Shown in pieces: positions 2,362 to 59,093 of a DNA stretch of 64,000 nucleotides. The first letter of the stretch is position 1. Each line of letters opens with the position of its first letter. Source of the DNA: Escherichia coli. GTDB lineage: Bacteria > Pseudomonadota > Gammaproteobacteria > Enterobacterales > Enterobacteriaceae. The stretch lies in the NCBI GenBank assembly GCA_029351405.1, contig GCA_029351405.1_4841.1; one strand, given 5' to 3'. The notes under the pieces are model-generated. The model saw only the letters and a program-made list of their open reading frames with translations, did no database searches and had not been told where the DNA came from. A program made the translations under genes and the position numbers.

Positions 2362-2823
2362 CTACTCCGCCAGGGTGATCACAACCATATTTAAGACTGT
2401 GTCGATAGCTCGGCCTGTTTCCTCTTCATGGAGGGTTTCGGCGCGGAGGTGCACGTCGGTGATGAAATTGTCGATGTGCATTGACGTCAGGTACGGGCGG
2501 TGCTGGCTGACCGGACGGTTGATCAGTACATAGTTACGCAGTGTGTTGAAGTCCTGCTGAGAGCACCCGGTGGTGTCAATGCGCAGGAAGCGTTCATTGT
2601 GGCTTGTCTTCAACTCAGTTACTTTGCCGAGGTAGACCAGAGGTCCATTGCGACCGATACGGAACATAACATCAACAACAGACTTGAAGATTTCGCGTTC
2701 AATCAGTGCGGTGGGTGACCAGCAGATCTCTTCTTTGTCGTCGGCGTACAGGGTGTCGATCACCAGAGGGAGTTGAATGTAACCGAAGTTGTGCAGTGGG
2801 TTGGTGAGTACCTTGTTTGTCAT
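2362..2823 (-). CDS. hypothetical early protein
   Basis: ATG at 2823 preceded by conserved leader TTGAAAGCAGGAACTATATC; the ORF-track N-terminal extension is the in-frame leader. Confidence 0.6.
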   Translation of the reverse strand: MTNKVLTNPLHNFGYIQLPLVIDTLYADDKEEICWSPTALIEREIFKSVVDVMFRIGRNGPLVYLGKVTELKTSHNERFLRIDTTGCSQQDFNTLRNYVLINRPVSQHRPYLTSMHIDNFITDVHLRAETLHEEETGRAIDTVLNMVVITLAE

Positions 2824-2873
2824 GATATAGTTCCTGCTTTCAATTTGTGGCGAATGCCAATGAATTACTGGGA

Positions 2874-2902
2874 AGTATAGGGGAGGGCGTTTCAAAAGTA
2901 AA
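2874..2902 (-). promoter_or_regulatory. early sigma70-like promoter (TTTACT-17-TATACT), PeSL-type cassette
   Basis: -35 and -10 hexamers with 17-nt spacer read on the minus strand; the same architecture recurs at 16126, 50399, 59009, 9190 and 31546. Confidence 0.5.
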
Positions 2903-9116: not shown

Positions 9117-9189
9117 GATGTAATTCCTCATAATGTAGTTGGTTCATTTCACTTTTCATTCGGCGGTGTGTTGCCGCCCTATGTGAACT

Positions 9190-9218
9190 ATAATAGTGCA
9201 TCATTATTGAAGAGTAAA
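9190..9218 (-). promoter_or_regulatory. early sigma70-like promoter (CTTTACT-17-TATTAT)
   Basis: Hexamers with 17-nt spacer about 75 nt upstream of the 9116 start. Confidence 0.5.
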
Positions 9219-15443: not shown

Positions 15444-15779
15444 TTATTTTTGAACTTGGGCTACAGACATCGCCCAGAGCGGGAGGGTGTGGGGGTCCAG
15501 GGCTTCCAGTAGATATTCGACGCGCTCTGACATGATACCTTCAGGGAAGTTTACTTCTTCTGGTTCGTTGTTGGCCGTCCAACCCAAGGTCAGTCCTTCA
15601 GCGTGATGGATGATATAAACGAAGTCGCCCGATTCGTAGTCCTTTTCCATCAGGTCGAAGAACGCTTCCATTTCTTCGTCGGAGAAGTAGTAGATGCGAG
15701 GTACGGAGCCGTCAGCAAAGTGTTCAGCACCCTGGAAGGCAAACATGTCATCGGCGGTGAAGTTCTTGAGTTGTGTCAT
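15444..15779 (-). CDS. hypothetical early protein
   Basis: 111 aa; conserved leader GAAGGAACTATATC-ATG. Confidence 0.6.
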   Translation of the reverse strand: MTQLKNFTADDMFAFQGAEHFADGSVPRIYYFSDEEMEAFFDLMEKDYESGDFVYIIHHAEGLTLGWTANNEPEEVNFPEGIMSERVEYLLEALDPHTLPLWAMSVAQVQK

Positions 15780-15801
15780 GATATAGTTCCTTCGGTTCAA
15801 A

Positions 15802-16077
15802 TTAACGGCGGAAAGGGCGGTTTGCGTTTTCGCGGTTAGACCAATTCTTTTCAGCCCGAGCGATAGCCGCTGGACTCCATTCGCGCTCCCACTCTTTGTC
15901 TACTTCAGCCTGGTTGGCAGGCTCTACCATTTCAACGCCAGGGAAGTCGCATGACATGATTTCGCGCAGCTGGGCAGCTGGGGCGGTCTGGGCGTGGATC
16001 AATTCTTCGCCGTCGTAAACCTTGGCCATCAGGTATTTCTGACCGTGGCGGATATATGCGTCGAGGATAATTTTCAT
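15802..16077 (-). CDS. hypothetical early protein
   Basis: 91 aa; conserved leader TTGAAAAGCAGGAACTACACC-ATG; PeSL promoter upstream. Confidence 0.6.
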   Translation of the reverse strand: MKIILDAYIRHGQKYLMAKVYDGEELIHAQTAPAAQLREIMSCDFPGVEMVEPANQAEVDKEWEREWSPAAIARAEKNWSNRENANRPFRR

Positions 16078-16125
16078 GGTGTAGTTCCTGCTTTTCAAGT
16101 TGGTGTTGTACTGCTTATGGAATGA

Positions 16126-16154
16126 AGTATAGGGAAGGATATTGAAGAAGTAAA
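16126..16154 (-). promoter_or_regulatory. early sigma70-like promoter (TTTACT-17-TATACT), PeSL-type cassette
   Basis: Hexamers with 17-nt spacer; near-identical to the cassettes at 2874 and 50399. Confidence 0.5.
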
Positions 16155-16171
16155 GGGGCGAAAGCCCCTTT
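16152..16171 (-). terminator. stem-loop with GAAA tetraloop abutting the early promoter
   Basis: aaaggggc-gaaa-gccccttt; T-rich on both sides. Confidence 0.45.
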
Positions 16172-16192
16172 TATTGAATTATTTTTACGGCG

Positions 16193-16822
16193 TCAGCTCA
16201 CAACCGGAATGTGGGATCGAATACCTGCGATGATGTCCTTCAGCTGAGGCTTCCATCCACCCACCAAACGGGGTAGAGCGATAGCACCAGGCTGGACCAA
16301 AATGATGTCGCTGCCTGTGATATTGTGCTGAGGGAACTGGGCGAGGTACTGCTCCATTGTGACACCCTCATCAATCAGAACCGCACCGACGTCAGACGAT
16401 GCGTAGGTTGCACCCAGACCGTCAACGCCCCATGCCAAGATGCCCCAGTCAGGGATGTTGGCTTCAGATGTGATGGTGAATCCAAACACGGTGTTCAGCG
16501 ATGTAAAGGAGTAGACATCGTGGGTGAGGTCATGCACCAGATACCCCTTGGCCAGCATATCGGCAAAGATCGCGTCTGTATCGCCAGCAGCCGGAGTCGG
16601 CACAGTAAACAACAGCTCACCCTCAGGAGGAGCAGGGTATGTTCTGAGGGCATAGAGGCACCATGCGTCAATACACTTCTTGATAAATGCCTCTGGTGCG
16701 ACATAATCGGCAAGGCGAACCGTGCCTGAGTACTCGGATACGATGATGCCTTCCTTCGCGCCCTGTAGAGCGATGAAGACCAAGATATGTTCATATCCGG
16801 TCTGAGATGGAGTGATGTTCAT
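16193..16822 (-). CDS. hypothetical protein
   Basis: 209 aa; ATG overlaps the upstream stop (TAATG). Confidence 0.6.
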   Translation of the reverse strand: MNITPSQTGYEHILVFIALQGAKEGIIVSEYSGTVRLADYVAPEAFIKKCIDAWCLYALRTYPAPPEGELLFTVPTPAAGDTDAIFADMLAKGYLVHDLTHDVYSFTSLNTVFGFTITSEANIPDWGILAWGVDGLGATYASSDVGAVLIDEGVTMEQYLAQFPQHNITGSDIILVQPGAIALPRLVGGWKPQLKDIIAGIRSHIPVVS

Positions 16823-17436
16823 TATCTTGTCCTCTTCAGTTTCTCTATCGTGTGCTTGTTCATGGCGATCACCCGAGGATCTACCTCGGAGATGGTCCGG
16901 CCTTTGAAGGACACACATTTCTGAAGATATTTAGCTTTCTTCACGACGTCAGCGGCATAAGCGTTCGATGCAGGATTACGGGCAAAGCCAGCATTGTAAG
17001 AGGAGAGGGATTTGCGGATATTCTGATTGTGATAGGTCAGCCAGAACTGCATCTCATCGAGGGCGGCTTGCGCGGCATATTCTTGGTCGGTCAGCAACTT
17101 TATGGCGACATTGGCATAGCACTTGCGATTCTTACAACCTTCGCGATCACCAACTGTCTTCACCTTGTTCTGAAAGGCTCCCATGTTGGCCGCCTTGAGG
17201 CCGTATCGCATTGACACTACATCTTCGCCAGCGCGGCTCTCACGCCAAGATATGGCGGCCAGAGTGTAGCCAAGATCTTGTGTCTTGCCCACGTGATAGG
17301 CGGTTGCCATCGTATTAAGTTGTTGCTCGGAGAAATTATAAACACATTGGCTTGTATTTTGGGAAGCGTGCACATTCCCGCTGGCAATGGTAAAGGTCAC
17401 GGACAAGGCCATGGCCTTCAACGTTGTCATCGTCAT
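16822..17436 (-). CDS. secreted protein with signal peptide, possibly lytic-transglycosylase-like
   Basis: N-terminal signal peptide (MTMTTLKAMALSVTFTIASGNVHA); WRESRAGED resembles the SLT catalytic region; SD AAGGAA. Confidence 0.55.
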   Translation of the reverse strand: MTMTTLKAMALSVTFTIASGNVHASQNTSQCVYNFSEQQLNTMATAYHVGKTQDLGYTLAAISWRESRAGEDVVSMRYGLKAANMGAFQNKVKTVGDREGCKNRKCYANVAIKLLTDQEYAAQAALDEMQFWLTYHNQNIRKSLSSYNAGFARNPASNAYAADVVKKAKYLQKCVSFKGRTISEVDPRVIAMNKHTIEKLKRTR

Positions 17437-26616: not shown

Positions 26617-27279
26617 TTACACCTCCACCGCGTGAGACTTCAGGAGTTCATCAATCTCTTTCTGTCCCATGTATGAGAACGGGGTGCGCTGGTAGAACGC
26701 CCAGAGTACTAACTGGACAACAGCACGGGAACGGGTTTCGGCCGTCATCACCAGGCCACTGAAATGAGGAGACTCAGCTGTCCATTGTATCTCTTCGCCC
26801 AGGTCTTGATTACAGGTCACCGAGATGCGGAACTTGTTGCACAGATTGTCGACTTCTTTGTACGCATCGGTAGACACACGAAGTTGTTCCGCATGTGCCC
26901 ACGGAGTTGTGACGATTCTTTCACCCATCACTTTATCAGAGATAAACCAATCAATACATTCGGTAAACTCACTAAAATGGTCGATACGATAAATGCAGTC
27001 TCCCCCTTCCATAGAACGCATGGCATGATAGCGAGCGTCGATTTCGTTGTTGTGCATCGCGTTGAAGTCGATGAACACGCGACGCGCCAGCACAACATCT
27101 TCTGGTTGAAGTGCCAGGAAATCGTTCAGGCGGCTATAATGGAGGACATTGGAACCGTCGTGGCCACGTGTGCAATATGCGTAATGGCTACCGATACGGG
27201 CGTGGGCAATATAAGACAACGGGGCGAAGAATAATCCGTCAGGATCAGGACCGACGATAATAGAATAAAGTTTTTCCAT
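26617..27279 (-). CDS. hypothetical early protein
   Basis: 220 aa; leader GACTATATC-ATG variant. Confidence 0.6.
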   Translation of the reverse strand: MEKLYSIIVGPDPDGLFFAPLSYIAHARIGSHYAYCTRGHDGSNVLHYSRLNDFLALQPEDVVLARRVFIDFNAMHNNEIDARYHAMRSMEGGDCIYRIDHFSEFTECIDWFISDKVMGERIVTTPWAHAEQLRVSTDAYKEVDNLCNKFRISVTCNQDLGEEIQWTAESPHFSGLVMTAETRSRAVVQLVLWAFYQRTPFSYMGQKEIDELLKSHAVEV

Positions 27280-27335
27280 GATATAGTCACTCAAATGAAA
27301 GGGCAGCTTTATGATAAGCCGCCCGAGGTTATTGA

Positions 27336-28568: not shown

Positions 28569-29254
28569 CACTCGTTCTCCTTCATCATATTGTCGCAGTC
28601 AACGCGAGTCTGCTGGAGTTCGCGTGACATGCGAGGATCATCAAGGTTCACGCTCAGATTCGTGGCCAGGTCTTTCAGACCGTTCTGAACCCTGTCTTCA
28701 AAGTAATAATCGTTCTCAACCAACCAGGCTCTGAGACCGAGAGCGCGAGTGCGCCATTCCTTCTTCAGGACGCGATCAGAGGTCTGCGTAGCGCTGTATT
28801 CGAATACTTTGATGCACTGGTTGCCATCGTTGATAAGGTTCAGGTGGCGGCGACCAACCTGCACACCCTTCTGTAATGCCGGAGAAGGGAGCGAACGACA
28901 CTGTCTTACGGTCATTCGGCCTTGGGTGCCCATACGCCCAGTCATGATTAAATCGCCAGCCTCCATGCCTCCACGGTTAAATTCGTCGTCATTGAGGTAG
29001 CCCTTGAGGTTATAGGCTCCCTGTTTGTAACGGTTGAACTCAATTCCGGCATTGACGACAGCAGTGGAGACGTTGCCTGTGTTCCAGAGTTCAGCGAAGT
29101 TCTCTATGGAACCAGACTTGTCGATGGCAACCGCCTGGGAGAACCCAGCACAATAGGAAAGGTCGGACCACAGTTTATCACCTGTGGAGTTCAGATTGGC
29201 AGCGGCGGGTAATGCCAGACCAGCCAGCACAACCCCGAGGATTAAACGTTTCAT
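28568..29254 (-). CDS. secreted or membrane-anchored protein (signal peptide)
   Basis: ATG at 29254 with SD AAGGAGAA; N-terminus MKRLILGVVLAGLALPAAA. Confidence 0.6.
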   Translation of the reverse strand: MKRLILGVVLAGLALPAAANLNSTGDKLWSDLSYCAGFSQAVAIDKSGSIENFAELWNTGNVSTAVVNAGIEFNRYKQGAYNLKGYLNDDEFNRGGMEAGDLIMTGRMGTQGRMTVRQCRSLPSPALQKGVQVGRRHLNLINDGNQCIKVFEYSATQTSDRVLKKEWRTRALGLRAWLVENDYYFEDRVQNGLKDLATNLSVNLDDPRMSRELQQTRVDCDNMMKENE

Positions 29255-29282
29255 GGTGATTCTCCTTATTTCATTGGATGAA

Positions 29283-29311
29283 ATGATAGGCGGCTCACCA
29301 TGTTGAGTAAA
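29283..29311 (-). promoter_or_regulatory. candidate early promoter (TTTACT-17-TATCAT)
   Basis: Hexamers with 17-nt spacer upstream of the 29254 start. Confidence 0.35.
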
Positions 29312-30263: not shown

Positions 30264-30637
30264 AATGTTCCACCCCCGACAGAGATCAAGAACTCTTCTT
30301 GCATGGTCTTGACCGGGTGGTGGTTTCGGATTTCGATCATGAAGCCCCAGCCGCCGTCGGCGACGTTGCCAAAGGTCTTGACGCCAAAGGACTTCGTCCC
30401 GTTGGAGCAGGAATAGATGTCCAGGACGTATGGGCTACCCTGATTGTCGATCCCACGATTCACGTCTTCTGATACGCAGCGCTCAATCATCTTCCCGTTC
30501 TTATACAGAACGAGGTCTTGGCCATACGCCTTGAAAGCATAAACACCGTTGGTAGACACTCCGGTGATGACAGGAGGGGCGGAAACAGCAGCAAAGGAAG
30601 CGCCTAGCAGGGCAACAGCGAGGATTAACTTTTTCAT
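30260..30637 (-). CDS. secreted protein (signal peptide)
   Basis: MKKLILAVALLGASFAAVSA signal peptide; conserved leader ...GACTATATC-ATG. Confidence 0.6.
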   Translation of the reverse strand: MKKLILAVALLGASFAAVSAPPVITGVSTNGVYAFKAYGQDLVLYKNGKMIERCVSEDVNRGIDNQGSPYVLDIYSCSNGTKSFGVKTFGNVADGGWGFMIEIRNHHPVKTMQEEFLISVGGGTL

Positions 30638-30661
30638 GATATAGTCTCTTGGTTTCAAATG

Positions 30662-30683
30662 GGCGGGGTATGATTACCCCGCC
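30662..30683 (-). repeat. GC-rich leader stem-loop (ggcggggta-tgat-taccccgcc), family member
   Basis: 9-bp stem; related copies at 31223, 43148 and 31960; loop is the reverse complement of the 31223 copy. Confidence 0.5.
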
Positions 30684-30689
30684 GTGGGT

Positions 30690-31196
30690 TTATAGAGTAA
30701 CAAGTGATACGGTAAAAACCATCGTCCCGTCTGTTGCCATTTTTCTTGAAACTGGTATGACGCGAGGCTGGCAGAATATCCATTCTTTCTCCATGGACGC
30801 CAAGTCCAGCATATCCATTTCTGATTCATCGCCTTTGTTCACAAATTTTTCTAGAGAACCATAGACATTAAGCCCCTCCGGGAGTCCGTTTCGATGTTTG
30901 TAACAAATGCGGGCAACAGCTTTGGTTCCGTACGATTTAGAAAATTGTTTGGCCACATGCTTCAGTTCACTGAAGCTAAGACAAGAATCCCATGTCTGGA
31001 ACATGTCGCCTCGTTCAAACATCATCTCTAAACGCGCAACGTCCTCTTTAGGCAGCCCGCGATAAAGTGTGGTCGTCTGTGGTTCGCGTAATTCTTGCAC
31101 CAGATCACGGACGGCAGGGGAAACAGTACCGGGGCGCATTATGTGGGACTTATCATGGACGAGGTAAAATAAATCTTGAATTTGTTGATCGGTCAT
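30690..31196 (-). CDS. putative ADP-ribosyltransferase (R-S-E type, ModA/ModB-like)
   Basis: 168 aa; YRG ... SFS ... EKEWIF spacing matches the R / S-x-S / E-x-E triad; conserved early leader. Confidence 0.45.
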   Translation of the reverse strand: MTDQQIQDLFYLVHDKSHIMRPGTVSPAVRDLVQELREPQTTTLYRGLPKEDVARLEMMFERGDMFQTWDSCLSFSELKHVAKQFSKSYGTKAVARICYKHRNGLPEGLNVYGSLEKFVNKGDESEMDMLDLASMEKEWIFCQPRVIPVSRKMATDGTMVFTVSLVTL

Positions 31197-31222
31197 GGTA
31201 TAGTTCCTGCATTTCAAATAGA

Positions 31223-31240
31223 CGGGGTAATCATACCCCG
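31223..31240 (-). repeat. GC-rich leader stem-loop (cggggta-atca-taccccg), family member
   Basis: Same stem as the 30662 copy with inverted loop. Confidence 0.5.
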
Positions 31241-31302
31241 CCCAAAGTTATAGAATTAACTGATGTGCTTCAGAAGAGCGAAGAGGATCGCGGCCTTGGC
31301 CT

Positions 31303-31494
31303 TTACCTTTCCCACGATACCTGTCTCGACATCAACTTCTTCAGCAACCCACTCTTTCCCTTCTTGCTGATGATAACGTCACGACGCTGTGCGTAGACTT
31401 CTTTGGTCGCATACACACGACGGAACCCTTTAGCGCGGAGCAAGCCCCAATTGCGATCAATTTCTACTGAGGTTTCTACCATTTTGTTCTTCAT
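31303..31494 (-). CDS. small basic protein
   Basis: 63 aa; leader TTGAAAGGTAAGATTATAAC-ATG. Confidence 0.5.
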   Translation of the reverse strand: MKNKMVETSVEIDRNWGLLRAKGFRRVYATKEVYAQRRDVIISKKGKSGLLKKLMSRQVSWER

Positions 31495-31545
31495 GTTATA
31501 ATCTTACCTTTCAACCCGGTGAACCCATCGTTCGCCAGTTATTGA

Positions 31546-31574
31546 ATAATAGGACATTCCTTAGAGGAAGTAAA
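31546..31574 (-). promoter_or_regulatory. early sigma70-like promoter (GTTTACT-17-TATTAT)
   Basis: Hexamers with 17-nt spacer immediately 3' of the terminator hairpin (PeSL architecture). Confidence 0.5.
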
Positions 31575-34503: not shown

Positions 34504-35376
34504 TTATTTAAAGGAGTCTACAATGGATTTGAAAATATAATCTTTGGAGCGCTGTTGTACCGGGAGTTCTCCATACGGAACCATGCAAGGGTGTTGTTTG
34601 GTCTGAGGGTCTTTGACTGGGCCATACACCCAACCCTCAGACTCCTTCTCCGCCATCCATCTCTCATGCGATTCGCTGGGCTTACGATCACCAGTGAGGT
34701 GGAAGATAACACCTTTGCAAGCGCTCTCACGTTGCCAGGCCGGAGATTGTTCCCAAGGCAGTTGAGAGTCGTCACCAACAGACTTACAGTATGCGCGGTT
34801 GGCTTCATGACAAATCTTGGCGATGCGCAGAACCAATGGCGAATAAGTGAGATCGAGTTTGGAGTTGGCGCGCAGGAAATCACTAACAGTCTTACGAGAT
34901 TTGGCGTTATGAGATTCAACAACAAGTTCCATGTCATCCGGCCCACAAACGAAAGACGCCAAGAAGCGCTCACCATTTTCCGCTCTGAACGTCACGTCCT
35001 GAATCATCACATTGAAGCCGAGGTGATAGGCCGGATAGAGGGCGCTACGTTCAACAGCGTATTGATCGATCCGGATCTCTGCCGTTTCCGTGGCTTTGGC
35101 CAACAGATCTTGTTCAACAAGCGCCCGGTACGTCTCGAGCTGCCACAGCTGGTCGAAGGTATTATTGTAGGAAATCTCTTTGCCCAGGGCTTCATCGAAG
35201 TTGGCAGGGTCTATGGATGTGCTGGGCTTGGTGCCGTGAACGACGAAGCCGTTATCCATCTTGAAATGACAAGTGATAGCCCGGTGACCGCCGACTTCGC
35301 GGTCTTCGTAAATCACCTCAGCGATATGTGACTTCAGGACTTCAGGAGTGAGTTTTATGCCAGTACGAGTTGTCAT
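34504..35376 (-). CDS. RyR-domain protein
   Basis: 290 aa; C-terminal ...HERWMAEKESEGWVYGPVKDPQTKQHPCMVPYGELP matches the RyR-domain consensus; SD AGGATAA. Confidence 0.65.
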   Translation of the reverse strand: MTTRTGIKLTPEVLKSHIAEVIYEDREVGGHRAITCHFKMDNGFVVHGTKPSTSIDPANFDEALGKEISYNNTFDQLWQLETYRALVEQDLLAKATETAEIRIDQYAVERSALYPAYHLGFNVMIQDVTFRAENGERFLASFVCGPDDMELVVESHNAKSRKTVSDFLRANSKLDLTYSPLVLRIAKICHEANRAYCKSVGDDSQLPWEQSPAWQRESACKGVIFHLTGDRKPSESHERWMAEKESEGWVYGPVKDPQTKQHPCMVPYGELPVQQRSKDYIFKSIVDSFK

Positions 35377-36235: not shown

Positions 36236-38254
36236 TTAGAACACAACTTTCACAGTGCGGTTGAACGAGCCGCTCACCTTCACGAACACGTGGTTGCGTT
36301 GGGTGGTAGAGAAGCCCAGACCGGACAGCTGCTCAGTGCTTGGCTGTACTTTAATCTTACCACCTAACATTTCAAAAACCTTGCGGTGTTTATCAAGTTC
36401 CGGCTTCAGATATTCGTTATAGAAGCCACGGGTGCCGACAGGGTTAGCACAACCTTCCAGGATGAAGAACACGTGCTTGTTGCCAGTCTGCTCACCGTCC
36501 CAATGGTTTGGTGAGTTCAGAACCAGCTGTACCTTCTGGAAGACCGAGGTCTTGATGCCCCAGATTTCCTGAGAGCGAGCGTCGTCCTTCAGGGTAGAAC
36601 GGATGTCTACCACCTGACCAGCGCGGACATCAATCACAACAGCCAGAGTGCGATCTTTGTGCTTCAGACCAGGATGCGAAAAACGCTTGGTCTGGCCTTT
36701 GTATTCAACTTCGATTTCGAAGCCCATATCACAGGTTTCACGCTGGCTGAAGTTAGTGACATAGAACTCGTACAGACCATCACGCAGCTTGCGTTCATCG
36801 CTGAAGAAGATGTTCTCCACCGGGCGGCGGTTGGGATCAATGCCGTCCATACCGTTCATGTCGATATCCAGGGTTGCGCCAGTTGCCGAACGACGGTTGT
36901 GATAATACACGTGGTTGTGAAGAGGATCGTTCAGGCTCAGATCCAGGTCGTCGTTGTTATGCCAAGCCAGTGACACGCGGAGGAAGCTGTCGACATTGCC
37001 GCCTGCGGTCTTCACGCGCTCTTTGATAGAGTCGGCCACTTCGCCATTGTACGACCAGCTGAAGCCGTTGTTCCACTTGAACAGGTTAGGAGCGCCTGCG
37101 GTAGCCGGAGCGATCAGGGACATCAGGTTGCCAATGTGAGAGTTTTCGACCAGCACTTCCAGGGAATGCGCCTTTGGCAACACGTTGGTCAGGAAGTCGT
37201 CGATCGTGATCTCTTCAACCTTGTCCAGGGACTTGGTCGGAGTCTTCACTTCAGACGCCAGCTGAGCAAACGGGTCCATCTTCTTCTGAGCTGCCAGATC
37301 GGCGAACAGAACGTTGTTGATGGTCAGATCGTCATACACGGCATAACGGCGACCCAGTGAATCAGTCAGACCCAGCGCTTCGACTTCTTTCTGCGCGTTT
37401 TCAATCATAGACTTCGTGACCAGCGCGGTTGGGCGCTTGTAGTTCGTCGGAGCGACTTTGGTTTCAAAGGACTTCACGGCGGTTTCCAGATCCCGGCCTT
37501 CATTGAGGTCTACCAGCAGAGAGCCAATCACGGTATTACGAATGCCGTGAGGGGTATGACCGTTTGCACGGTAGCCAGTGCGCCAAGCCCACAGAGCGCG
37601 TTTCTCTTCTGCAGTTTGTTCGTACAGGGTCTTGTTCACCACAAACGCCTGCACTGCCGCTTTGTGCTCTTCACCGCGATACAGAGAATTCTGGTCGATC
37701 AATTCCAGAACGATTTCAGCCGATTCCAGAGACAGTTCACGCAGGCCGCGCTCAAACACTTCAATCGCCTGGCGGATTTCACCCTTCTTAGAAGCGATGG
37801 CATCTGCCCGCAGAACATAGCTGCCCAGCAGGTCGGTGTGGAAGTGGTTGTAGGTGCGGACAATACCGTCTTTCATTTCGTGATTCGACCCAACACCAAC
37901 TTTCTTGGTGTCGTTGAAGTACACGTCGACGATTGCGTGCTGCTTAACATACGCTGACAGCGCCGCAGCGACAACGTCATATTCGTTACCCAGCTGAATG
38001 TTATCCCAGATAGAGATCACGTTCAGGTCGGAGTCGATGGTGACCACACCGCCGATGTTACGGATGAATTGTTTACAGCAGGTGCAGTCGTGCTCGGTAC
38101 GCTCACGGTAGAGCGGGTTGGTACCAGCAGGGAAAGAAGACAGATACAGATCCCACAGAGCATCTTTATCGATGTTGGTCATGAACAGACCAGTTGCTGA
38201 CATGGCCAGCACGTTATTGTTGACAGCTACTGCGAAGGGCTTAAAATCTGACAT
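36236..38254 (-). CDS. large hypothetical protein (672 aa)
   Basis: SD AGGAAGA with ACATC-ATG leader; no motif I can assign. Confidence 0.7.
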   Translation of the reverse strand: MSDFKPFAVAVNNNVLAMSATGLFMTNIDKDALWDLYLSSFPAGTNPLYRERTEHDCTCCKQFIRNIGGVVTIDSDLNVISIWDNIQLGNEYDVVAAALSAYVKQHAIVDVYFNDTKKVGVGSNHEMKDGIVRTYNHFHTDLLGSYVLRADAIASKKGEIRQAIEVFERGLRELSLESAEIVLELIDQNSLYRGEEHKAAVQAFVVNKTLYEQTAEEKRALWAWRTGYRANGHTPHGIRNTVIGSLLVDLNEGRDLETAVKSFETKVAPTNYKRPTALVTKSMIENAQKEVEALGLTDSLGRRYAVYDDLTINNVLFADLAAQKKMDPFAQLASEVKTPTKSLDKVEEITIDDFLTNVLPKAHSLEVLVENSHIGNLMSLIAPATAGAPNLFKWNNGFSWSYNGEVADSIKERVKTAGGNVDSFLRVSLAWHNNDDLDLSLNDPLHNHVYYHNRRSATGATLDIDMNGMDGIDPNRRPVENIFFSDERKLRDGLYEFYVTNFSQRETCDMGFEIEVEYKGQTKRFSHPGLKHKDRTLAVVIDVRAGQVVDIRSTLKDDARSQEIWGIKTSVFQKVQLVLNSPNHWDGEQTGNKHVFFILEGCANPVGTRGFYNEYLKPELDKHRKVFEMLGGKIKVQPSTEQLSGLGFSTTQRNHVFVKVSGSFNRTVKVVF

Positions 38255-38368
38255 GATGTAATCTTCCTGTTTCAGTTCAAATGTGCGCCCCGTTTGCCAG
38301 GGCGCTTCGTTTAAGTGAGGTCAATATACGCTGGATTGAGTTATTGAAGAACGAAGTAAAGGGAATCT

Positions 38369-40549: not shown

Positions 40550-41014
40550 TTATTCGCTTTTGGCCTTTGTAGGCCGGATAATGTATTTTGGGACCAGCTT
40601 CCATTCAGGAACCTGATCGTGTTTAACCACTTTAATGCGTGACATATCAGCGGCTTCGGTGACCTGCTCAGGATGAATGACCTTCACCATGTTCCACTGC
40701 TCCAGCAGCTTGATGATTCGGTTCATCCTCAGGACATCTTCGCGGTTAAATCCGTTGTAATGCCCGTCCAGCATAAATAGATGCTTAAAGTGGACGATAT
40801 AATACTTACCACACTTATGAAGAATATGGCAAGTCTGATACAGAGTATTCGGCTCTTGGCGCGTGTTTACCCCAATTCGACTCAGTGTTTCCTTGATCCC
40901 CAGGAATATACCTGGCCGATCTTGGTTCAATTGAACTTCAACCATACAATCAACGATGCTGGCCTCATCGTTGACTGCTGAAATATTCAATATGTCTAGC
41001 GTATTACGCGCCAT
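40550..41014 (-). CDS. regA: translational repressor RegA
   Basis: Core aligns with T4 RegA (GIKETLSRIG ... LYQTCHILHKCGKYYIVHFK ... EWKLVPKYII); T4 synteny after 44/62; an alternative start at 40945 is possible. Confidence 0.85.
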   Translation of the reverse strand: MARNTLDILNISAVNDEASIVDCMVEVQLNQDRPGIFLGIKETLSRIGVNTRQEPNTLYQTCHILHKCGKYYIVHFKHLFMLDGHYNGFNREDVLRMNRIIKLLEQWNMVKVIHPEQVTEAADMSRIKVVKHDQVPEWKLVPKYIIRPTKAKSE

Positions 41015-41469: not shown

Positions 41470-42459
41470 TCACTTCCACTTGATGTTGAGCATGACATTG
41501 GTCAGGAAAAACACAGCATGCAACCAGACATCGCCGACTTGGCGGTGTTCAATCTGAGACTGACCACATACGCACACCAGATCAGGGATAGACTCATTCT
41601 GAACCAACATTTGCTTCTCTTTATCCTGTGGCACACAGAACTGGAAGAAGCGGGAATAGAAGTCTTCAGTGATATAGTTCTGGTTGTCGGTCACCCACTG
41701 CTTCATCCCAGCCCAGTCATTATCCTTCAACATATTCACCAACATGCCCATATCGGCCGATTTTAACACAGCCAGTGCACGTTCGTCGATCTTGCCGTAA
41801 GTGGTGACGTTATCCTGTAGAACACCCATGATGCGGCGGTTATCAGGGAAATGGCGCTTGACAATAGCAGCCAACACAGGAGGGTCATACTCAACACCTT
41901 CGCTGCGAAGGATTTCAGCACAGCGGCGCATGAACTGAAGTTTGACCTCATCAGCCTCAGTCTCATTCCAGATAAAGTCGATTTCACGGCAACGAGAGCG
42001 CAGAGGTTCGTTCACACGTTGCTTGGCGTTGGTGGTCAGGATGAATGAACAGTTCTTGGAGACCTTCTCCACAATACCCTTCAGCGACTCCTGCGCCGCC
42101 ATAGACAGACGCTCTACTTCGTCGAGGATAACGACTTTGCGACCACCGAATACACTCACACCAGTAGAGTACTGAATCACGCGGTCACGGATAACGTCGA
42201 TACTGTTGTCCAGGGATGCGTTGATCATCAGTGGTTGCTTACAACCGATCTCGTTACACACAGCCAGGGCGGAGGTAGTCTTGCCAGTACCAGGCTGAGG
42301 GGAGTAGAACAGCATAGACGGGATGTTACCGTTGCCGCTGGTGATGTAGCCATGGATTTTAGCGCGGACGTCTTGAGGGATGATAATCTCGTCCAGGTTG
42401 TCAGGGCGGAAACGGTTCTCCCAGGCGTACTGGTCTTTTACAATCGTGATATTAGACAT
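41470..42459 (-). CDS. gp44: clamp loader large subunit, T4 gp44-like (AAA+ RFC family)
   Basis: 329 aa; Walker A SPQPGTGKTT; SRC-like motif; aligns with T4 gp44. Confidence 0.9.
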   Translation of the reverse strand: MSNITIVKDQYAWENRFRPDNLDEIIIPQDVRAKIHGYITSGNGNIPSMLFYSPQPGTGKTTSALAVCNEIGCKQPLMINASLDNSIDVIRDRVIQYSTGVSVFGGRKVVILDEVERLSMAAQESLKGIVEKVSKNCSFILTTNAKQRVNEPLRSRCREIDFIWNETEADEVKLQFMRRCAEILRSEGVEYDPPVLAAIVKRHFPDNRRIMGVLQDNVTTYGKIDERALAVLKSADMGMLVNMLKDNDWAGMKQWVTDNQNYITEDFYSRFFQFCVPQDKEKQMLVQNESIPDLVCVCGQSQIEHRQVGDVWLHAVFFLTNVMLNIKWK

Positions 42460-43115
42460 TATGTATTTCCATGATATAGTTTACAGAACAGAACCCAAGC
42501 GTCGTCATCATACGGGTTCCAGCCCTCTTTGAATTTGTTTAACATACTCGTTGCGGTGTTCTCTTTAATAGAGAACAAACGGGCAATTCTATGGCACCCA
42601 TCACCAGTAGAAACCCAGTGATCATACACTACCCCAGCCTTTAACCACATCGGTCTGGTGTTGTGTAGCAGCGCAGCCCCGGTGTCCCAGGGTTTTATTC
42701 CTGCGGCGGGGTGGCTTTTACCAGTTCTTCCGTGCATGGGATGAAGATTCCCAGACTTGCCCTTCAACCAACTCGAGACACCAACTCGGTGATGTTTAGG
42801 TCCCGCTGACCTACCGTTGGCGATACCACAACCCCGTGGCTGAAATGATTTGTTTAAACATTTTGGGTGATCAATGTTCTCACTAATCAACTGCTGCTCT
42901 CTCCAATATGCTTCTTCTGGGGAGTCAAACAGTTCTACGAATTCTACATCAAAGAAATCAGAACCTTTCTTAGATATGATTTCCTTGACTGTTTGTGAAG
43001 AAGTGAAATATGAAGTGAACAATTGTAAAGGATGTGCACCCAATTTCGTTCTAGAACCAAAATAGAAAGAACCATCCTTCCCTAACAAATGATATACAAA
43101 CGGTTGGTTCCTCAT
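42459..43115 (-). CDS. GIY-YIG homing endonuclease (seg-like) with NUMOD3-type repeats
   Basis: VYHLL ... FYFGSR GIY-YIG motifs, 10-aa spacing; C-terminal KGKSGNLHPMHGRTGKSHP repeats; inserted between gp45 and gp44; start at 43115 or 43139. Confidence 0.7.
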   Translation of the reverse strand: MRNQPFVYHLLGKDGSFYFGSRTKLGAHPLQLFTSYFTSSQTVKEIISKKGSDFFDVEFVELFDSPEEAYWREQQLISENIDHPKCLNKSFQPRGCGIANGRSAGPKHHRVGVSSWLKGKSGNLHPMHGRTGKSHPAAGIKPWDTGAALLHNTRPMWLKAGVVYDHWVSTGDGCHRIARLFSIKENTATSMLNKFKEGWNPYDDDAWVLFCKLYHGNT

Positions 43116-43147
43116 TTCAGCCTCGTGTAGAAGAATCATTTCAAATA

Positions 43148-43166
43148 GGCGGGGAACTCCCCCGCC
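43148..43166 (-). repeat. GC-rich leader stem-loop (ggcgggg-aactc-ccccgcc), family member
   Basis: 7-bp stem followed by TATTTGAAATG, as in the 30662 and 31223 copies. Confidence 0.4.
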
Positions 43167-43196
43167 CACACATTATAGCATCAGGCTGGAGATTGA

Positions 43197-50298: not shown

Positions 50299-50398
50299 TG
50301 TTCAAAGGTTTAGAACAAATTGCTGCAATGTTACTTTGTAACGAGAGTGGTGATAGTTCCTTCATTTCAGAGTCAGTGTTGTGCTGCTTATGGAATGA

Positions 50399-50426
50399 AG
50401 TATATGGGGTTTATTGAAGAAGTAAA
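50399..50426 (-). promoter_or_regulatory. orphan PeSL-type early promoter (TTTACT-16-TATACT) whose downstream start codon is lost
   Basis: Promoter and leader nearly identical to the 16126 cassette, but the leader reads GGAACTATCACCAC instead of GGAACTATATCATG. Confidence 0.4.
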
Positions 50427-50696: not shown

Positions 50697-51140
50697 TCAG
50701 TTGTTAATGCGGAACAGTTGTGGATAACCACCTGGATGCCCTTCTCCGGTCACGAAGACCTCGTACCGGGCACCTTTAACCAAACCGGGCAAATTGCCTG
50801 AGTCGAGCAGATAGCGGATTTTATCCATAGTGTCCATCCAGGACTTAGCAGGTTCAGCTTCAGCCTCTCCACGATTGAGGACGAGTTCACCTTCAGAATA
50901 ATACTTCCCGCTGTCCTTCATGTAGTACAGCTTGATATGGATATACTGAGGGGATGGGACCAAACGCCAGCCGTCATCAATCAGATCCTGGCGATCATTA
51001 TCCAGGGACTGGTAATCGATCTCACCAGACGCCAGACCATAGCTGCGCATGTAGCGGAACTTCTCAACACGGTCTTTCACGTCAGAGATGAAGAACTCCT
51101 TCGCGGCTGGACTGATAAAAATGTATTTCTCTTTTGACAT
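50697..51140 (-). CDS. hypothetical early protein
   Basis: 147 aa; conserved leader TTTGAAAGGAAGGAACTATATC-ATG overlapping the upstream stop. Confidence 0.6.
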   Translation of the reverse strand: MSKEKYIFISPAAKEFFISDVKDRVEKFRYMRSYGLASGEIDYQSLDNDRQDLIDDGWRLVPSPQYIHIKLYYMKDSGKYYSEGELVLNRGEAEAEPAKSWMDTMDKIRYLLDSGNLPGLVKGARYEVFVTGEGHPGGYPQLFRINN

Positions 51141-51157
51141 GATATAGTTCCTTCCTT

Positions 51158-51382
51158 TCAAAGAATGATGTGTTTGTCGATATCGGACTGCGTTGCAATC
51201 TCCCAGCGGACGATGTTCTCGGTTGTGATGAAATCACGGTTCAGGTGAGAGGCTGGCACATACACCAATGTGTTGACCATGAAGTAGCGCTGCTCATTGT
51301 TCCAGGAGTCAACATAAGCCTCAATAAGGCACACTTCGATCACTTCGCCTTTCGGATTCTTCACAGTCTTTTTCAGATACAT
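51158..51382 (-). CDS. hypothetical protein (start uncertain)
   Basis: ATG at 51382 with SD GAGGG preferred; the ORF-track start at 51469 overlaps the upstream gene. Confidence 0.45.
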   Translation of the reverse strand: MYLKKTVKNPKGEVIEVCLIEAYVDSWNNEQRYFMVNTLVYVPASHLNRDFITTENIVRWEIATQSDIDKHIIL

Positions 51383-58256: not shown

Positions 58257-58282
58257 GGTCGTTCTCCTCTGAATAGTGTAAA

Positions 58283-58289
58283 TATTTAG
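58283..58289 (-). promoter_or_regulatory. late promoter box CTAAATA upstream of gp19
   Basis: aaaCTAAATAttt 27 nt upstream of the ATG. Confidence 0.5.
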
Positions 58290-58570
58290 TTTTGAAATAA
58301 ATGGGGGTTAAAATACTCCAAAGTGAAGATATTTATTATGTCATTCCCCGATAAAAATTATTCATGCTGGGAACGATGAAACGCAATCCGGGTTTGTTGG
58401 ATAACATCCGACGACCGAAACTGAATGCCGCTCTTGGGTTGATAGTAAACTCAGGAAAGAGAAATTCCTTAAACTTGGATACGATGTAGAAGGTAAAACA
58501 GAGGATATGCTGGCGATAGAAGCCGGGTTGGGGCGTATCTGGGGGTGTGGTCTTATCCGGTATGAACAGG

Positions 58571-58597
58571 AAAACTAAAACCCCGCCTCAGCGGGGT
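58571..58597 (-). terminator. rho-independent terminator
   Basis: ccccgc-ctca-gcgggg hairpin followed by UUUUAGUUUU on the minus strand. Confidence 0.55.
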
Positions 58598-58603
58598 AAA
58601 CTA

Positions 58604-58960
58604 CTATTTGCGAATGCCAACCTGAGCATAATACACATGATAATCACCGTGGGTACGGAAGCTGGTGAGGTGGAAGGTGACGAGGTGGCTCCCGAAAGCT
58701 ACAACTTTGGTATCTGGGGAGCATAAATCATTAGTTAGTTCACCCAGAACCTTACCACAAAACTCCCCAACAATAGCGTTAAATCTGTCAATGTGTGGAC
58801 TGGTCACCGTCATTGGACCAACATCTGCACAGTAGATCCCTTTTATCATCTTTCCCTGGCTGTCGCGTACTGGCTTTGCAGGCTGGTAAGGGTTGACGCG
58901 GCGTTTCAGGTTACAGAGGCCGATTTCTTTCAGGATAGCGTTAATTTCGGTCTTGGTCAT
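58604..58960 (-). CDS. hypothetical early protein inserted between gp18 and gp19
   Basis: 118 aa; conserved leader TTGAAACGAAGGATCTATATC-ATG; own early promoter. Confidence 0.6.
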   Translation of the reverse strand: MTKTEINAILKEIGLCNLKRRVNPYQPAKPVRDSQGKMIKGIYCADVGPMTVTSPHIDRFNAIVGEFCGKVLGELTNDLCSPDTKVVAFGSHLVTFHLTSFRTHGDYHVYYAQVGIRK

Positions 58961-59008
58961 GATATAGATCCTTCGTTTCAAGTTGGTGTCGTACTGCTTA
59001 TGTTTAGA

Positions 59009-59036
59009 ATTATACGTGAGTTATTGAAGAAGTAAA
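59009..59036 (-). promoter_or_regulatory. early sigma70-like promoter (TTTACT-16-TATAAT), PeSL-type
   Basis: Perfect -10; spacer tcttcaataactcacg shared with the other cassettes. Confidence 0.5.
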
Positions 59037-59065
59037 GTAATTCAATAAAATAATCTGGAAAATTT

Positions 59066-59088
59066 AAAACCCCGCCGAAGCGGGGTTT
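59066..59088 (-). terminator. rho-independent terminator after gp18 (same hairpin as after gp23)
   Basis: ccccgc-cgaa-gcgggg followed by UUUUAAAUU on the minus strand. Confidence 0.7.
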
Positions 59089-59093
59089 GTTTA

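What the first reader, a model, noticed from the sequence alone, without database searches (positions are those of the whole stretch)
30637..30662. Conserved leader TTTGAAA-N-AGGAACTATATC-ATG in front of many early genes
Near-identical sequence runs into the start codons at 2823, 15779, 16077, 30637, 31196, 51140 and 58960, with variants at 9116, 27279, 31494, 38254 and 55742. It is in frame with the ORF, which is why the ORF track shows spurious N-terminal extensions such as MKxRNYIM. This is more conserved than a Shine-Dalgarno requires, so it may be a shared translational operator (a regA homolog is encoded at 40550-41014) or part of the mobile cassette.
Basis: partly seen in the sequence, partly recalled or inferred. 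Interest (0 to 1): 0.5.

Follow-up and report, generated by a model that had tools for sequence, protein, structure and literature searches.

The report
Repeated early-gene leader in Ackermannviridae phage
A 24-base ribosome-loading sequence really is repeated in front of about ten small genes of this ViI-like (Ackermannviridae) phage. It is best read as the downstream end of a repeated promoter-plus-leader cassette of a kind already known in T4-like phages, and not yet as a demonstrated RegA operator.

Summary
TTGAAA-N3-AGGAACTATATC-ATG (minus strand) runs into the start codons at 2823, 15779, 16077, 30637, 31196, 51140 and 58960. Looser copies lie at 9116, 27279, 31494, 38254 and 29254. The site at 55742 is only a generic ribosome-binding site.

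The window is an Agtrevirus-like Ackermannviridae phage, 96% identical to E. coli phage AV101. The box is more than a Shine-Dalgarno: its SD pairing is no stronger than that of other genes, TTGAA occurs in 9 of 11 motif genes and 0 of 61 others, and it recurs in Limestonevirus, Kuttervirus and Klebsiella relatives. It marks a subset of genes, with 8 hits in the whole AV101 genome, not all early genes.

Most copies end a cassette: stem-loop, AT-rich tract, sigma-70 promoter TTTACT-N17-TATAYT, unstructured 5'UTR, box, small ORF. This fits the published definition of PeSL cassettes. Gene gains, losses and swaps between relatives have their junctions inside the box, and one whole cassette sits at different loci in different phages.

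The RegA homologue is real. However, the orthologues of eight canonical T4 RegA targets (rIIA, rIIB, dexA, cd, 45, 44, 62, regA) lack the box, so the operator idea is untested and somewhat disfavoured. I found no description of the box in the family literature I could reach.

The parts
2821..2843 (-). Leader box TTGAAA-GC-AGGAACTATATC-ATG of a 153-aa ORF (phrog_3902, function unknown). The gap is 2 nt here.
2874..2902 (-). Early sigma-70-type promoter TTTACT-N17-TATACT, directly preceded by the stem-loop GCCCCTCattGAGGGGC. It lies 51 nt upstream of the ATG at 2823.
15777..15800 (-). Promoter-less leader box TTGAAC-CGA-AGGAACTATATC-ATG of a 111-aa ORF. It starts right after the stop codon of the upstream ORF and is the right-hand repeat of a 298-nt indel relative to AV101.
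16075..16098 (-). Leader box TTGAAA-AGC-AGGAACTACACC-ATG of a 91-aa ORF that is absent from AV101 and LIMEstone1. It is the left-hand repeat of the same indel.
16126..16154 (-). Early promoter TTTACT-N17-TATACT preceded by the stem-loop GGGGCtttcGCCCC. The predicted 5'UTR CATAAGCAGTACAACACCAAC is unstructured.
30635..30658 (-). Leader box TTGAAA-CCA-AGAGACTATATC-ATG of a 125-aa ORF.
30662..30683 (-). GC-rich hairpin GGCGGGGTAatcaTACCCCGCC immediately 5' of the box. The 61-nt segment containing it folds at -18.7 kcal/mol (z -3.8), almost all of it from this hairpin.
31194..31217 (-). Leader box TTGAAA-TGC-AGGAACTATACC-ATG of a 168-aa ORF with a weak PHROG match to RNA polymerase ADP-ribosylase. 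In LIMEstone1 the same hairpin and box precede denV instead.
31219..31244 (-). GC-rich hairpin (U)GGGCGGGGUAugauUACCCCGUC(UA) immediately 5' of the box. The 61-nt segment containing it folds at -19.8 kcal/mol (z -2.5).
51138..51161 (-). Promoter-less leader box TTGAAA-GGA-AGGAACTATATC-ATG of a 147-aa ORF. The TGA stop codon of the upstream ORF lies inside TTGAAA.
58958..58981 (-). Leader box TTGAAA-CGA-AGGATCTATATC-ATG of a 118-aa ORF (phrog_13016).
59009..59090 (-). Terminator hairpin AAACCCCGCTTCGGCGGGGTTTT, an AT-rich tract and the promoter TTTACT-N16-TATAAT of the 58960 cassette, inserted between gp18 and gp19. The same cassette lies after gp23 in Klebsiella phage Trex_ER12.
9114..9152 (-). 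Variant with a tandem copy of the SD-to-ATG unit: gTGAAAtgaACCAACTACATTATG followed by AGGAATTACATCATG. It lies behind the promoter at 9190-9218 and a 5'UTR hairpin.
27277..27300 (-). Variant TTTCATTTGAGTGACTATATC-ATG behind a hairpin, in front of a 220-aa ORF.
31492..31515 (-). Variant TTGAAA-GGT-AAGATTATAAC-ATG behind the promoter at 31546-31574.
38252..38280 (-). Variant cATTTGAACTGAAACAGGAAGATTACATC-ATG behind a 5'UTR hairpin, in front of a 672-aa ORF. It is conserved in all four relatives examined.
29252..29311 (-). Promoter TTTACT-N17-TATCAT with a degenerate leader aTGAAA-TA-AGGAGAATCACC-ATG.
50353..50426 (-). Intact early promoter (50399-50426) and 5'UTR ending in a relic box CTGAAATGAAGGAACTAT (50353-50370). 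The ORF found here in relatives is replaced by 36 nt.
40550..41014 (-). regA homologue (154 aa). It is context for the operator hypothesis and is not shown to act on the box.

Best explanation
The 24-nt box is the ribosome-loading (3') end of a repeated early-gene expression cassette of the PeSL type ('promoter-early stem-loop').

A full cassette reads, 5' to 3':
- a GC stem-loop or terminator;
- an AT-rich tract;
- a sigma-70 promoter, TTTACT-N16-17-TATAYT;
- a 27-45 nt 5'UTR without G-rich stems, or one carrying a single 5' hairpin;
- the box TGAAA-nGn-AGGAAC-TAYAYC-ATG;
- a small accessory ORF.

On the mRNA, the box offers host ribosomes a single-stranded landing site. It has a short AGGA Shine-Dalgarno 8 nt from the AUG, a spacer with no G, A at -3 and -5, and an A-rich TGAAA element upstream. 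These genes would therefore be translated as soon as host RNA polymerase transcribes them.

At the DNA level, the dispersed near-identical copies (about 8-12 per genome) act as short homologies. Recombination between them inserts, deletes or swaps the ORFs they flank. That process keeps the copies alike and produces promoter-less 'half' copies such as 15779 and 51140.

Shown here: the motif is real and enriched; conservation is position-specific; it is tied to the promoters; it is family-wide; junctions of gene gain, loss and replacement lie inside the box; one cassette sits at different loci.

Inferred: early timing, the effect on translation efficiency, and recombination as the mechanism.
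For: (1) Enrichment and specificity.
- 9 hits against 0.03 expected.
- 12 upstream pairs share at least 18 of 24 bases, against 0.05 under column shuffling.
- TTGAA occurs upstream of 9 of 11 motif genes, 0 of 61 other genes, background 0.03.

(2) Link to the promoters. In AV101, the regex TTTAC[N]-N16-18-TA[TC][AT][ACT]T finds 8 sites, all on the minus strand. Six are followed by the box or a variant. Cassette classes picked by promoter alone all end in TGAA(A/G)-N2-3-(A)AGGA...TAYAWC-ATG.

(3) Family-wide, family-specific.
- The same consensus is found in LIMEstone1, Det7 and Klebsiella phage Croc_ER14.
- An exact scan of IMG/VR hits only 156-162 kb contigs. A degenerate scan hits mostly 152-162 kb contigs.
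- There were 0 hits in 185,579 bacterial and archaeal genomes.
- blastn of one cassette gives 781 places in 281 Ackermannviridae records, but only 10 records carry its ORF.

(4) Junctions inside the box.
- A 298-nt indel holds the ORF at 16077. It is flanked by the two boxes, which both align to a single 28-nt stretch of AV101.
- That AV101 box is chimeric: its 5' half matches the window's 16077 box and its 3' half the 15779 box.
- denV in LIMEstone1 replaces the 168-aa ORF between the boxes of 31196 and 30637.
- The relic at 50353-50370 has lost its ORF downstream of AGGAACTAT.

(5) Cassette at different loci. The whole 58960 cassette lies between gp18 and gp19 here and in phage A221, but directly after gp23 in Klebsiella phage Trex_ER12.

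(6) RNA features. The promoter-type 5'UTRs are unstructured (MFE -1.5, -2.2 and -4.9 kcal/mol, z above 0). In the hairpin-type leaders the box stays open in the centroid structure, with only weak pairing in the MFE. The +4..+20 region is more open than in other genes (p 0.003). The spacer has no G in the 7 core sites, against a mean of 1.5 in other genes.

(7) Fit to the published definition. PeSLs are described as an AT-rich region, a stem-loop, a sigma-70 promoter (TTTACW-N17-TAYWAT in T4/PST), and an SD plus start codon at the 3' end. They cluster at indels (PMC4122927).
Against: - No expression, ribosome-profiling or recombination data exist for this phage family. Early timing and any translational benefit are therefore inferred.
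- The predicted openness of the -12..+3 region is not significantly greater than in other genes (p 0.10). The SD pairing tends to be weaker (-5.1 against -6.2 kcal/mol, p 0.08). A simple 'strongest RBS' reading is not demonstrated.
- Nothing explains why TTGAAA in particular is kept.
- At orthologous sites the box diverges 17.6%, against 25.7% for third codon positions and 6.1% for positions 1+2. Constraint is moderate, not extreme.
- Position-specific conservation (free N3; only T/C changes at -4, -2 and -1) would also fit a sequence-specific binding factor.
- In the hairpin-type copies the stem-loop lies downstream of the putative -10, unlike classical PeSLs.
Confidence: 0.6

Rival explanations
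1. The box is an RNA operator for the phage RegA homologue. RegA binds the single-stranded AACUAYAYCAUG stretch between the SD and the AUG, competes with 30S subunits, and shuts off a defined set of accessory early genes together once RegA accumulates.
For: - A true RegA homologue is encoded in the conserved 45-44-62-regA cluster.
- Three T4 RNA-binding residues (T18, R21, W81) are conserved (read against PMC3014915).
- T4 and RB69 RegA sites overlap or lie just 5' of the AUG, are unstructured and are A+U-rich. The box has the same location and is single-stranded.
- Conservation extends beyond what SD pairing needs and is position-specific.
- A copy of ACTATATCATG covers the weak SD of gene 44 in the window and in LIMEstone1.
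Against: - The orthologues of eight canonical T4 RegA targets (rIIA, rIIB, dexA, cd, 45, 44, 62, regA) lack the box in AV101.
- The ACTATATCATG copy upstream of gene 44 is absent from AV101, Det7 and the Klebsiella phage.
- The box does not resemble the T4 selection consensus aaAAUUGUUAUGUAA or the RB69 consensus AAUAAUAAUAAnA.
- T4 RegA sites famously lack a sharp consensus, unlike this box.
- K14 and F106 of T4 RegA are replaced (G and H), so specificity cannot be transferred from T4.
- The hypothesis does not explain the recombination junctions.
Confidence: 0.17
2. The box is the target of another trans-acting factor that inactivates early mRNAs. Candidates are a sequence-specific endoribonuclease working with ribosomal protein S1, in the manner of T4 RegB on GG*AGRAYARAA, or a phage or host small RNA.
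For: - T4 RegB/S1 recognises an 11-nt site that starts in the SD and runs through the spacer. That is the same architecture as AGGAACUAUAUC.
- GGA is the minimal RegB determinant.
- The U/C-only variation at -4, -2 and -1 would be tolerated by pairing to G in a partner RNA.
Against: - The box matches the RegB consensus only at GGA.
- The LIMEstone1 'putative RegB' orthologue (16822-17436) gives only a weak SLT hit and no RegB hit.
- No antisense copy of the box occurs in the window.
- Rfam finds nothing.
Confidence: 0.08
3. The box acts at the DNA level as a transcription signal. Either TTGAAA serves as a -35 element, or TATATC (or its reverse complement TGATATAGT) serves as a -10 or extended -10 element, or the box binds a DNA-binding regulator.
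For: - TTGAAA resembles TTGACA.
- The reverse complement CATGATATAGT contains a TGnTATAGT extended -10-like word.
- The generic scan pairs TTGAAA with GAAAAT at 16098-16070.
- The LIMEstone1 authors annotated AACTAT upstream of gene 44 as the -10 of a middle promoter.
Against: - The TTGAAA-to-TATATC spacing is 9 nt, not 16-18.
- A -10 ending at -1 would start transcripts inside the ORF.
- About half of the copies have C at -4 (19 of 40 unique copies). On the opposite strand this removes the essential A at position 2 of the -10 hexamer.
- The box keeps a fixed distance to the ATG, not to the promoter (27-45 nt variable), and also occurs with no promoter.
- It has no dyad symmetry.
Confidence: 0.03
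4. The box is nothing special: an ordinary Shine-Dalgarno plus chance similarity, or simply the genome-wide RBS consensus.
For: The other 61 genes also show a weak bias to A at -3, T at -2 and C at -1, with a GGA core.
Against: - The column-shuffle control, which keeps the general consensus, gives 0.05 pairs against 12 observed.
- TTGAA occurs in 0 of 61 other genes.
- There were 0 hits in 20 Markov-shuffled AV101 genomes against 8 observed.
Confidence: 0.02

Closest known systems
PeSL (promoter-early stem-loop) regulatory cassettes of T4-type phages (Arbiol et al. 2010, PMC2839356, title and abstract seen; Comeau et al. 2014, PMC4122927, read)
   Same: Composite element with an AT-rich tract, a stem-loop, a sigma-70 early promoter (T4/PST consensus TTTACW-N17-TAYWAT; here TTTACT-N16-17-TATAYT), and an SD plus start codon at the 3' end. 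Several dispersed copies sit in front of small ORFs of unknown function. Insertions, deletions and replacements between close relatives have junctions in the element. Degraded 'half' copies exist.
   Different: - It is found here in Ackermannviridae, a family for which my searches found no PeSL description.
- The best-conserved part is not the promoter or stem-loop but a 24-nt SD-proximal box with its own upstream TTGAAA element.
- The box also occurs without a promoter, or behind a hairpin that lies downstream of the putative -10.
- Mini-circle formation has not been shown.
T4/RB69 RegA translational operators
   Same: Located between the SD and the AUG or overlapping the AUG. Single-stranded, with a locally raised A+U content. 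A RegA homologue is encoded in the same genome in the same gene cluster.
   Different: T4 sites have no sharp consensus and carry a 5' A-tract with UU before the AUG. This box is a sharp 24-nt consensus and is absent from the orthologues of the eight classical targets I checked. Binding is untested.
T4 RegB/S1 cleavage site GG*AGRAYARAA
   Same: A long (11 nt) signal that starts in the SD of early mRNAs and extends through the spacer. It serves coordinated inactivation of early messages.
   Different: Only GGA is shared, and no RegB homologue was detected among the candidates tested.
Phage and bacterial translational enhancers upstream of a modest SD (for example the T7 gene 10 leader or the E. 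coli atpE leader). These are recalled from general knowledge and were not tested here.
   Same: An A/U-rich, G-poor, unstructured leader with a short SD at optimal spacing, and a conserved element a few nucleotides 5' of the SD.
   Different: No sequence identity was established and no functional data exist. This is a lead only.

Membership tests
PeSL cassette | Sigma-70-type early promoter inside the element (T4/PST: TTTACW-N17-TAYWAT) | tested here: met
   TTTACT-N16-17-TATACT/TATAAT/TATTAT lies upstream of 2823, 9116, 16077, 31494, 58960, the relic at 50353-50370, and 29254. It is not present upstream of 15779 and 51140, which are promoter-less copies.
PeSL cassette | Stem-loop next to (upstream of) the promoter | tested here: met
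   GC stem-loops abut or precede the -35 at 2902, 16154, 31574 and 59036. The scan flags 16149-16175 as terminator-like. In the 30637, 31196, 9116 and 38254 copies the hairpin lies downstream of the putative -10 instead.
PeSL cassette | AT-rich tract upstream of the -35 | tested here: met
   ttATTcAATAAA and ttattgaa tracts are present in the promoter-defined cassettes.
PeSL cassette | Shine-Dalgarno and start codon of the downstream ORF at the 3' end | tested here: met
   This is the box itself.
PeSL cassette | Multiple dispersed copies associated with variable small ORFs | tested here: met
   8 copies in AV101 and 9-12 in the window. There are 781 places in 281 records. The ORFs are 91-168 aa, mostly of unknown function and variably present.
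PeSL cassette | Indels and replacements between close relatives with junctions in the element | tested here: met
   A 298-nt indel with a chimeric box, the denV versus 168-aa ORF swap, the relic at 50353-50370, and the 58960 cassette at two different loci.
PeSL cassette | Experimentally shown recombination or mini-circle formation between copies | not testable with these tools
   Needs PCR or deep sequencing of infected cells.
RegA operator | RegA protein encoded by the phage | tested here: met
   PF01818, E 2e-34. 1REG, E 4e-26, with T18, R21 and W81 conserved and K14 and F106 not.
RegA operator | Site at or just 5' of the AUG, unstructured, A+U-rich | tested here: met
   The box spans -21..+3. 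It is single-stranded in the centroid structures of all six leaders folded. The 8-nt spacer is 5.6/8 A+T with no G in the 7 core sites.
RegA operator | Present on the known RegA regulon (44, 45, 62, regA, rIIA, rIIB, dexA, cd) | tested here: not met
   None of these eight orthologues in AV101 carries the box. Only a partial ACTATATCATG lies upstream of gene 44, in the window and LIMEstone1.
RegA operator | Resemblance to the RegA selection consensus (T4 aaAAUUGUUAUGUAA; RB69 AAUAAUAAUAAnA) | tested here: not met
   By inspection against the sequences quoted in PMC3014915.
RegA operator | RegA binds the RNA and represses translation | not testable with these tools
   Needs a binding assay, toeprinting or a regA mutant.
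RegB/S1 target | GGAG core within GGAGRAYARAA, and a RegB nuclease encoded by the phage | tested here: not met
   The box is GGAACUAUAUC, so only GGA matches. The one annotated RegB candidate gives no RegB hit. The rest of the genome was not screened.
Plain Shine-Dalgarno site | Conservation limited to anti-SD complementarity 5-10 nt from the start | tested here: not met
   Conservation spans 24 nt, and SD pairing is no stronger than in other genes.

The most novel reading that the evidence does not exclude
The 24-nt box is a sharply defined RNA operator. A phage factor, most plausibly the diverged RegA homologue, would use it to switch off a dedicated set of cassette-borne accessory early genes together. 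If so, every gene that enters the genome through a cassette would come under the same translational control automatically. That would be the first RegA-type operator with a clear consensus, and it would couple modular gene acquisition to post-transcriptional regulation.
Probability: 0.17. Interest if true: 0.65.

Novelty: new member of a known kind. Interest (0 to 1): 0.42.

Why it matters
Gene regulation in Ackermannviridae is essentially uncharted. The founding genome papers could find only a handful of promoters. A 2024 review of the family does not contain the words 'promoter' or 'transcription'.

This box and its cassette give three things:
- a concrete, searchable signature for one class of early transcription and translation units;
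- a correction for mis-called starts, namely the 7-codon TTG extensions;
- a mechanism for the gain, loss and swapping of small accessory genes, which are probable host-takeover or anti-defence functions, in phages widely used for biocontrol and detection of Salmonella, E. coli O157 and Dickeya.

It also extends PeSL-type modular shuffling beyond the T4-like phages proper. Finally, it provides a short, well-defined RNA with which to test what the RegA homologue of this family recognises.

Tried and rejected
- **TTGAAA as a -35, or TATATC as a -10.** The spacing is wrong (9 nt) and transcripts would start inside the ORF.
- **Antisense extended -10 (TGATATAGT).** About half of the copies have C at -4, which removes the key A of the hexamer.
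- **Stronger SD.** Pairing to the anti-SD is -5.1 kcal/mol against -6.2 for other genes.
- **More open initiation region.** Not significant for -12..+3 (p 0.10). Only +4..+20 is more open.
- **Known RNA family.** Rfam gives 0 hits at gathering thresholds.
- **Host origin.** There were 0 exact hits in 596 Gb of bacterial and archaeal genomes.
- **RegB.** The only annotated candidate, the orthologue of LIMEstone1 ORF086, is not RegB by Pfam.
- **TGAA as a general upstream feature of this phage's genes.** It is not: 11 of 61 genes against a background of 0.15.
- **Function of the downstream genes.** No Pfam hits. PHROGs are all 'unknown function' apart from one weak ADP-ribosylase match.
- **Literature.** Searches for a prior description or for transcriptomes of the family found nothing relevant.
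- **Generic promoter scan.** It is not enriched over shuffles (18 against 17.6). The promoter calls therefore rest on the family-specific repeated consensus, not on that scan.
- **An apparent inverted leader fragment at about 34390.** I judged it a chance match.
Full report
**What the window is.** A 6-kb piece of the window is 96% identical to Escherichia phage AV101 (Ackermannviridae, Aglimvirinae). It matches 278 records of ViI-like phages of Salmonella, Klebsiella, Escherichia, Dickeya and Serratia. Nearly all genes lie on the minus strand. I transferred AV101's annotated starts to the window by tblastn and obtained 73 usable start sites.

- AGGAACTATATCATG with up to 2 mismatches occurs 9 times, all on the minus strand, against 0.03 expected. 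Each hit ends on an annotated start codon.
- TTGAA precedes it at a fixed distance in the seven core sites: 2823, 15779, 16077, 30637, 31196, 51140 and 58960.
- The TTG is in frame and produces the 7-codon extensions seen in the mechanical ORF list.
- The other 61 genes share only a weak version of the 3' part (GGA core, A at -3, T at -2, C at -1) and never have TTGAA.
- Column shuffling preserves that general consensus. Under it, 0.05 pairs of upstream regions share at least 18 of 24 bases, against 12 observed.

The site at 55742 is a generic RBS. I add a degenerate copy at 29254 and a gene-less relic at 50353-50370.

**How widespread is it?**
- In the complete AV101 genome a degenerate pattern at up to 3 mismatches finds only 8 sites, all on the minus strand, against 0 in 20 Markov-shuffled genomes. 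The box therefore marks a subset of genes, not 'early genes' in general.
- The large plus-strand block with rIIA, rIIB, the DNA polymerase and the topoisomerase genes has none.
- The same consensus, (T/C)TGAAA-nGn-AGGAA(C/A)-TA(T/C)A(T/C)(C/T)-ATG, recurs in Limestonevirus LIMEstone1, Kuttervirus Det7 and a Klebsiella phage.
- An exact scan of IMG/VR hits only 156-162 kb contigs. A degenerate scan hits mostly 152-162 kb contigs.
- A scan of 185,579 bacterial and archaeal genomes finds nothing. Rfam finds nothing.

**Anatomy around the box.** Most copies are the first start codon after a promoter of one repeated type:
- an AT-rich tract (ttATTcAATAAA);
- often a GC stem-loop abutting the -35;
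- TTTACT, then a spacer TCTTCAATAA..., then TATACT, TATAAT or TATTAT;
- a 27-45 nt 5'UTR, in several copies cATAAGCAGtACgACACCAAC;
- the box.

In AV101 this promoter pattern gives 8 sites, all on the minus strand, and six are followed by the box or a variant. A second subtype (30637, 31196, 9116, 38254) has a stable GC hairpin immediately 5' of (c/t)ATTTGAA; the segments holding it fold at about -19 to -21 kcal/mol. Two copies, 15779 and 51140, have no promoter and follow the preceding ORF directly.

Predicted 5'UTRs of the promoter type are essentially unstructured (MFE -1.5, -2.2 and -4.9 kcal/mol). In the hairpin-type leaders the box stays open in the centroid structure, with only weak pairing in the MFE.

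The downstream ORFs are small (91-168 aa) and have no Pfam family. Their PHROGs are of unknown function, apart from one weak match to an RNA polymerase ADP-ribosylase.

**Is it more than a Shine-Dalgarno?** Yes.
- Its pairing to the anti-SD is, if anything, weaker than that of other genes (-5.1 against -6.2 kcal/mol, p 0.08). Its 8-nt spacer contains no G in the 7 core sites.
- Conservation is position-specific. N3 is free apart from a preference for G in the middle, and positions -4, -2 and -1 vary only between T and C. The logo is partly circular for the specified positions.
- At orthologous sites across genera the box diverges 17.6%, against 25.7% at third codon positions and 6.1% at positions 1+2. 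Constraint is moderate, not extreme.
- Predicted openness of -12..+3 is not significantly higher than in other genes (p 0.10). The region +4..+20 is more open (p 0.003).

**Evidence that the box belongs to a mobile or recombining cassette.**
1. The window has promoter, box 1, ORF16077, box 2, ORF15779. AV101 and LIMEstone1 have promoter, box, ORF15779. Det7 and the Klebsiella phage have promoter, box, ORF16077. Both window boxes align to the same 28 nt of AV101. The AV101 box is chimeric: TTGAAAAGC as in box 1, then AGGAAC, then TATATC as in box 2. The 298-nt indel therefore has its crossover inside the box.
2. Between the boxes of 31196 and 30637 the window carries a 168-aa ORF where LIMEstone1 carries denV. 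Homology stops at the ATG on one side and resumes at AGAGACTATATCATG on the other.
3. At 50353-50426 the promoter, 5'UTR and CTGAAATGAAGGAACTAT are intact, but the ORF present in relatives is replaced by 36 nt.
4. The whole 58960 cassette (terminator hairpin, AT-rich tract, promoter, 5'UTR, box, 118-aa ORF) lies between gp18 and gp19 here and in phage A221. It lies directly after gp23 in Klebsiella phage Trex_ER12.
5. blastn of that cassette finds 781 places in 281 records, but only 10 records contain the ORF. The rest match the promoter and leader alone.

**Comparison with what is known.** Comeau, Arbiol and Krisch define PeSLs in T4-type phages as follows: an AT-rich region, a stem-loop, a sigma-70-like early promoter (TTTACW-N17-TAYWAT for T4/PST), and an SD with the start codon at the 3' extremity. 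PeSLs cluster at indels, and degraded half-elements exist (PMC4122927). Every sequence-level feature of that definition is met here. Only the experimental mini-circle evidence cannot be tested.

I found no paper that mentions PeSLs together with Ackermannviridae. The Ag3, LIMEstone and CBA120 genome papers and a 2024 family review do not describe the leader.

**The RegA idea.** The homologue is genuine, and the box has the position and single-stranded character of T4 and RB69 RegA sites. Against it:
- The orthologues of eight classical targets (rIIA, rIIB, dexA, cd, 45, 44, 62, regA) lack the box.
- The box resembles neither published RegA selection consensus.
- Two of five T4 RNA-contact residues are changed.

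A partial copy, ACTATATCATG, covers the weak SD of gene 44 in the window and in LIMEstone1. It is absent from AV101, Det7 and the Klebsiella phage. The operator hypothesis is therefore not excluded, but I rate it at about 0.17.

A RegB-like target is less likely. Only GGA is shared with GGAGRAYARAA, and the annotated 'RegB' candidate is not RegB by Pfam. DNA-level promoter readings fail on geometry and on the C variants at -4.

**Verdict.** The best explanation (0.6) is that the box is the ribosome-loading 3' arm of PeSL-type early cassettes in an Ackermannviridae phage. It would serve both as an unstructured translation-initiation site and as the short homology through which accessory ORFs are exchanged. 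It is a new member of a known kind, with one distinctive feature: a sharply conserved 24-nt SD-proximal box that can exist on its own. Interest is moderate.

Noticed in passing
window 9114-9152 (-): The 15-nt SD-to-ATG unit is duplicated in tandem: gTGAAAtgaACCAACTACATTATG followed in frame by AGGAATTACATCATG. The first unit has its SD changed from GG to CC. The arrangement is conserved in AV101, LIMEstone1 and Det7.
   Followed up: partly
window 50353-50426 (-): An intact early promoter and 5'UTR end in a relic box, CTGAAATGAAGGAACTAT. The 93-109 aa ORF found here in AV101, LIMEstone1, Det7 and the Klebsiella phage is replaced by 36 unrelated bases.
   Followed up: yes
window 42459-43169 (-): A 236-aa ORF with a weak SegE-type GIY-YIG match is inserted between the sliding-clamp gene (gp45) and the clamp-loader gene (gp44). 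It is absent from AV101 and is probably a free-standing homing endonuclease. Its stop codon overlaps the gp44 ATG.
   Followed up: partly
window 34504-35376 (-): A 290-aa ORF with N4 gp49/Sf6 gp66 and RyR domains occupies the place where AV101 has nadV (nicotinamide phosphoribosyltransferase) and prs. Another locus where relatives carry different genes.
   Followed up: partly
window 61038, 58289, 54749, 46089, 11633 (-): CTAAATA sits about 30-50 nt upstream of the starts of gp18, gp19, gp22, uvsW and a structural-protein orthologue. It is probably the family's version of the T4 late promoter TATAAATA. None of these genes has the TTGAA box.
   Followed up: partly
window 16822-17436 (-); L012 9882-10496: The gene annotated 'putative RegB' in LIMEstone1 gives only a weak SLT transglycosylase hit in Pfam and no RegB hit. 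The annotation looks unsafe.
   Followed up: partly
window 58256-59100 (-): The gp18-gp19 intergenic region appears to be an insertion hot spot. The window and phage A221 have the 118-aa early cassette, with A221 also carrying a large opposite-strand ORF. AV101 has an unrelated 232-aa ORF there.
   Followed up: partly
window 12315-15368 (-): This 1017-aa ORF aligns to the 906-aa AV101 protein only from AV101 residue 186 onward (93% identity). The N-terminal part differs between these otherwise near-identical phages.
   Followed up: no
L022, L024, L034, L042, L044 (IMG/VR contigs of 9-38 kb): A few matches to the degenerate box lie on short metagenomic contigs rather than on roughly 157-kb genomes. 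They could be chance matches, fragments of Ackermannviridae, or other phages.
   Followed up: no
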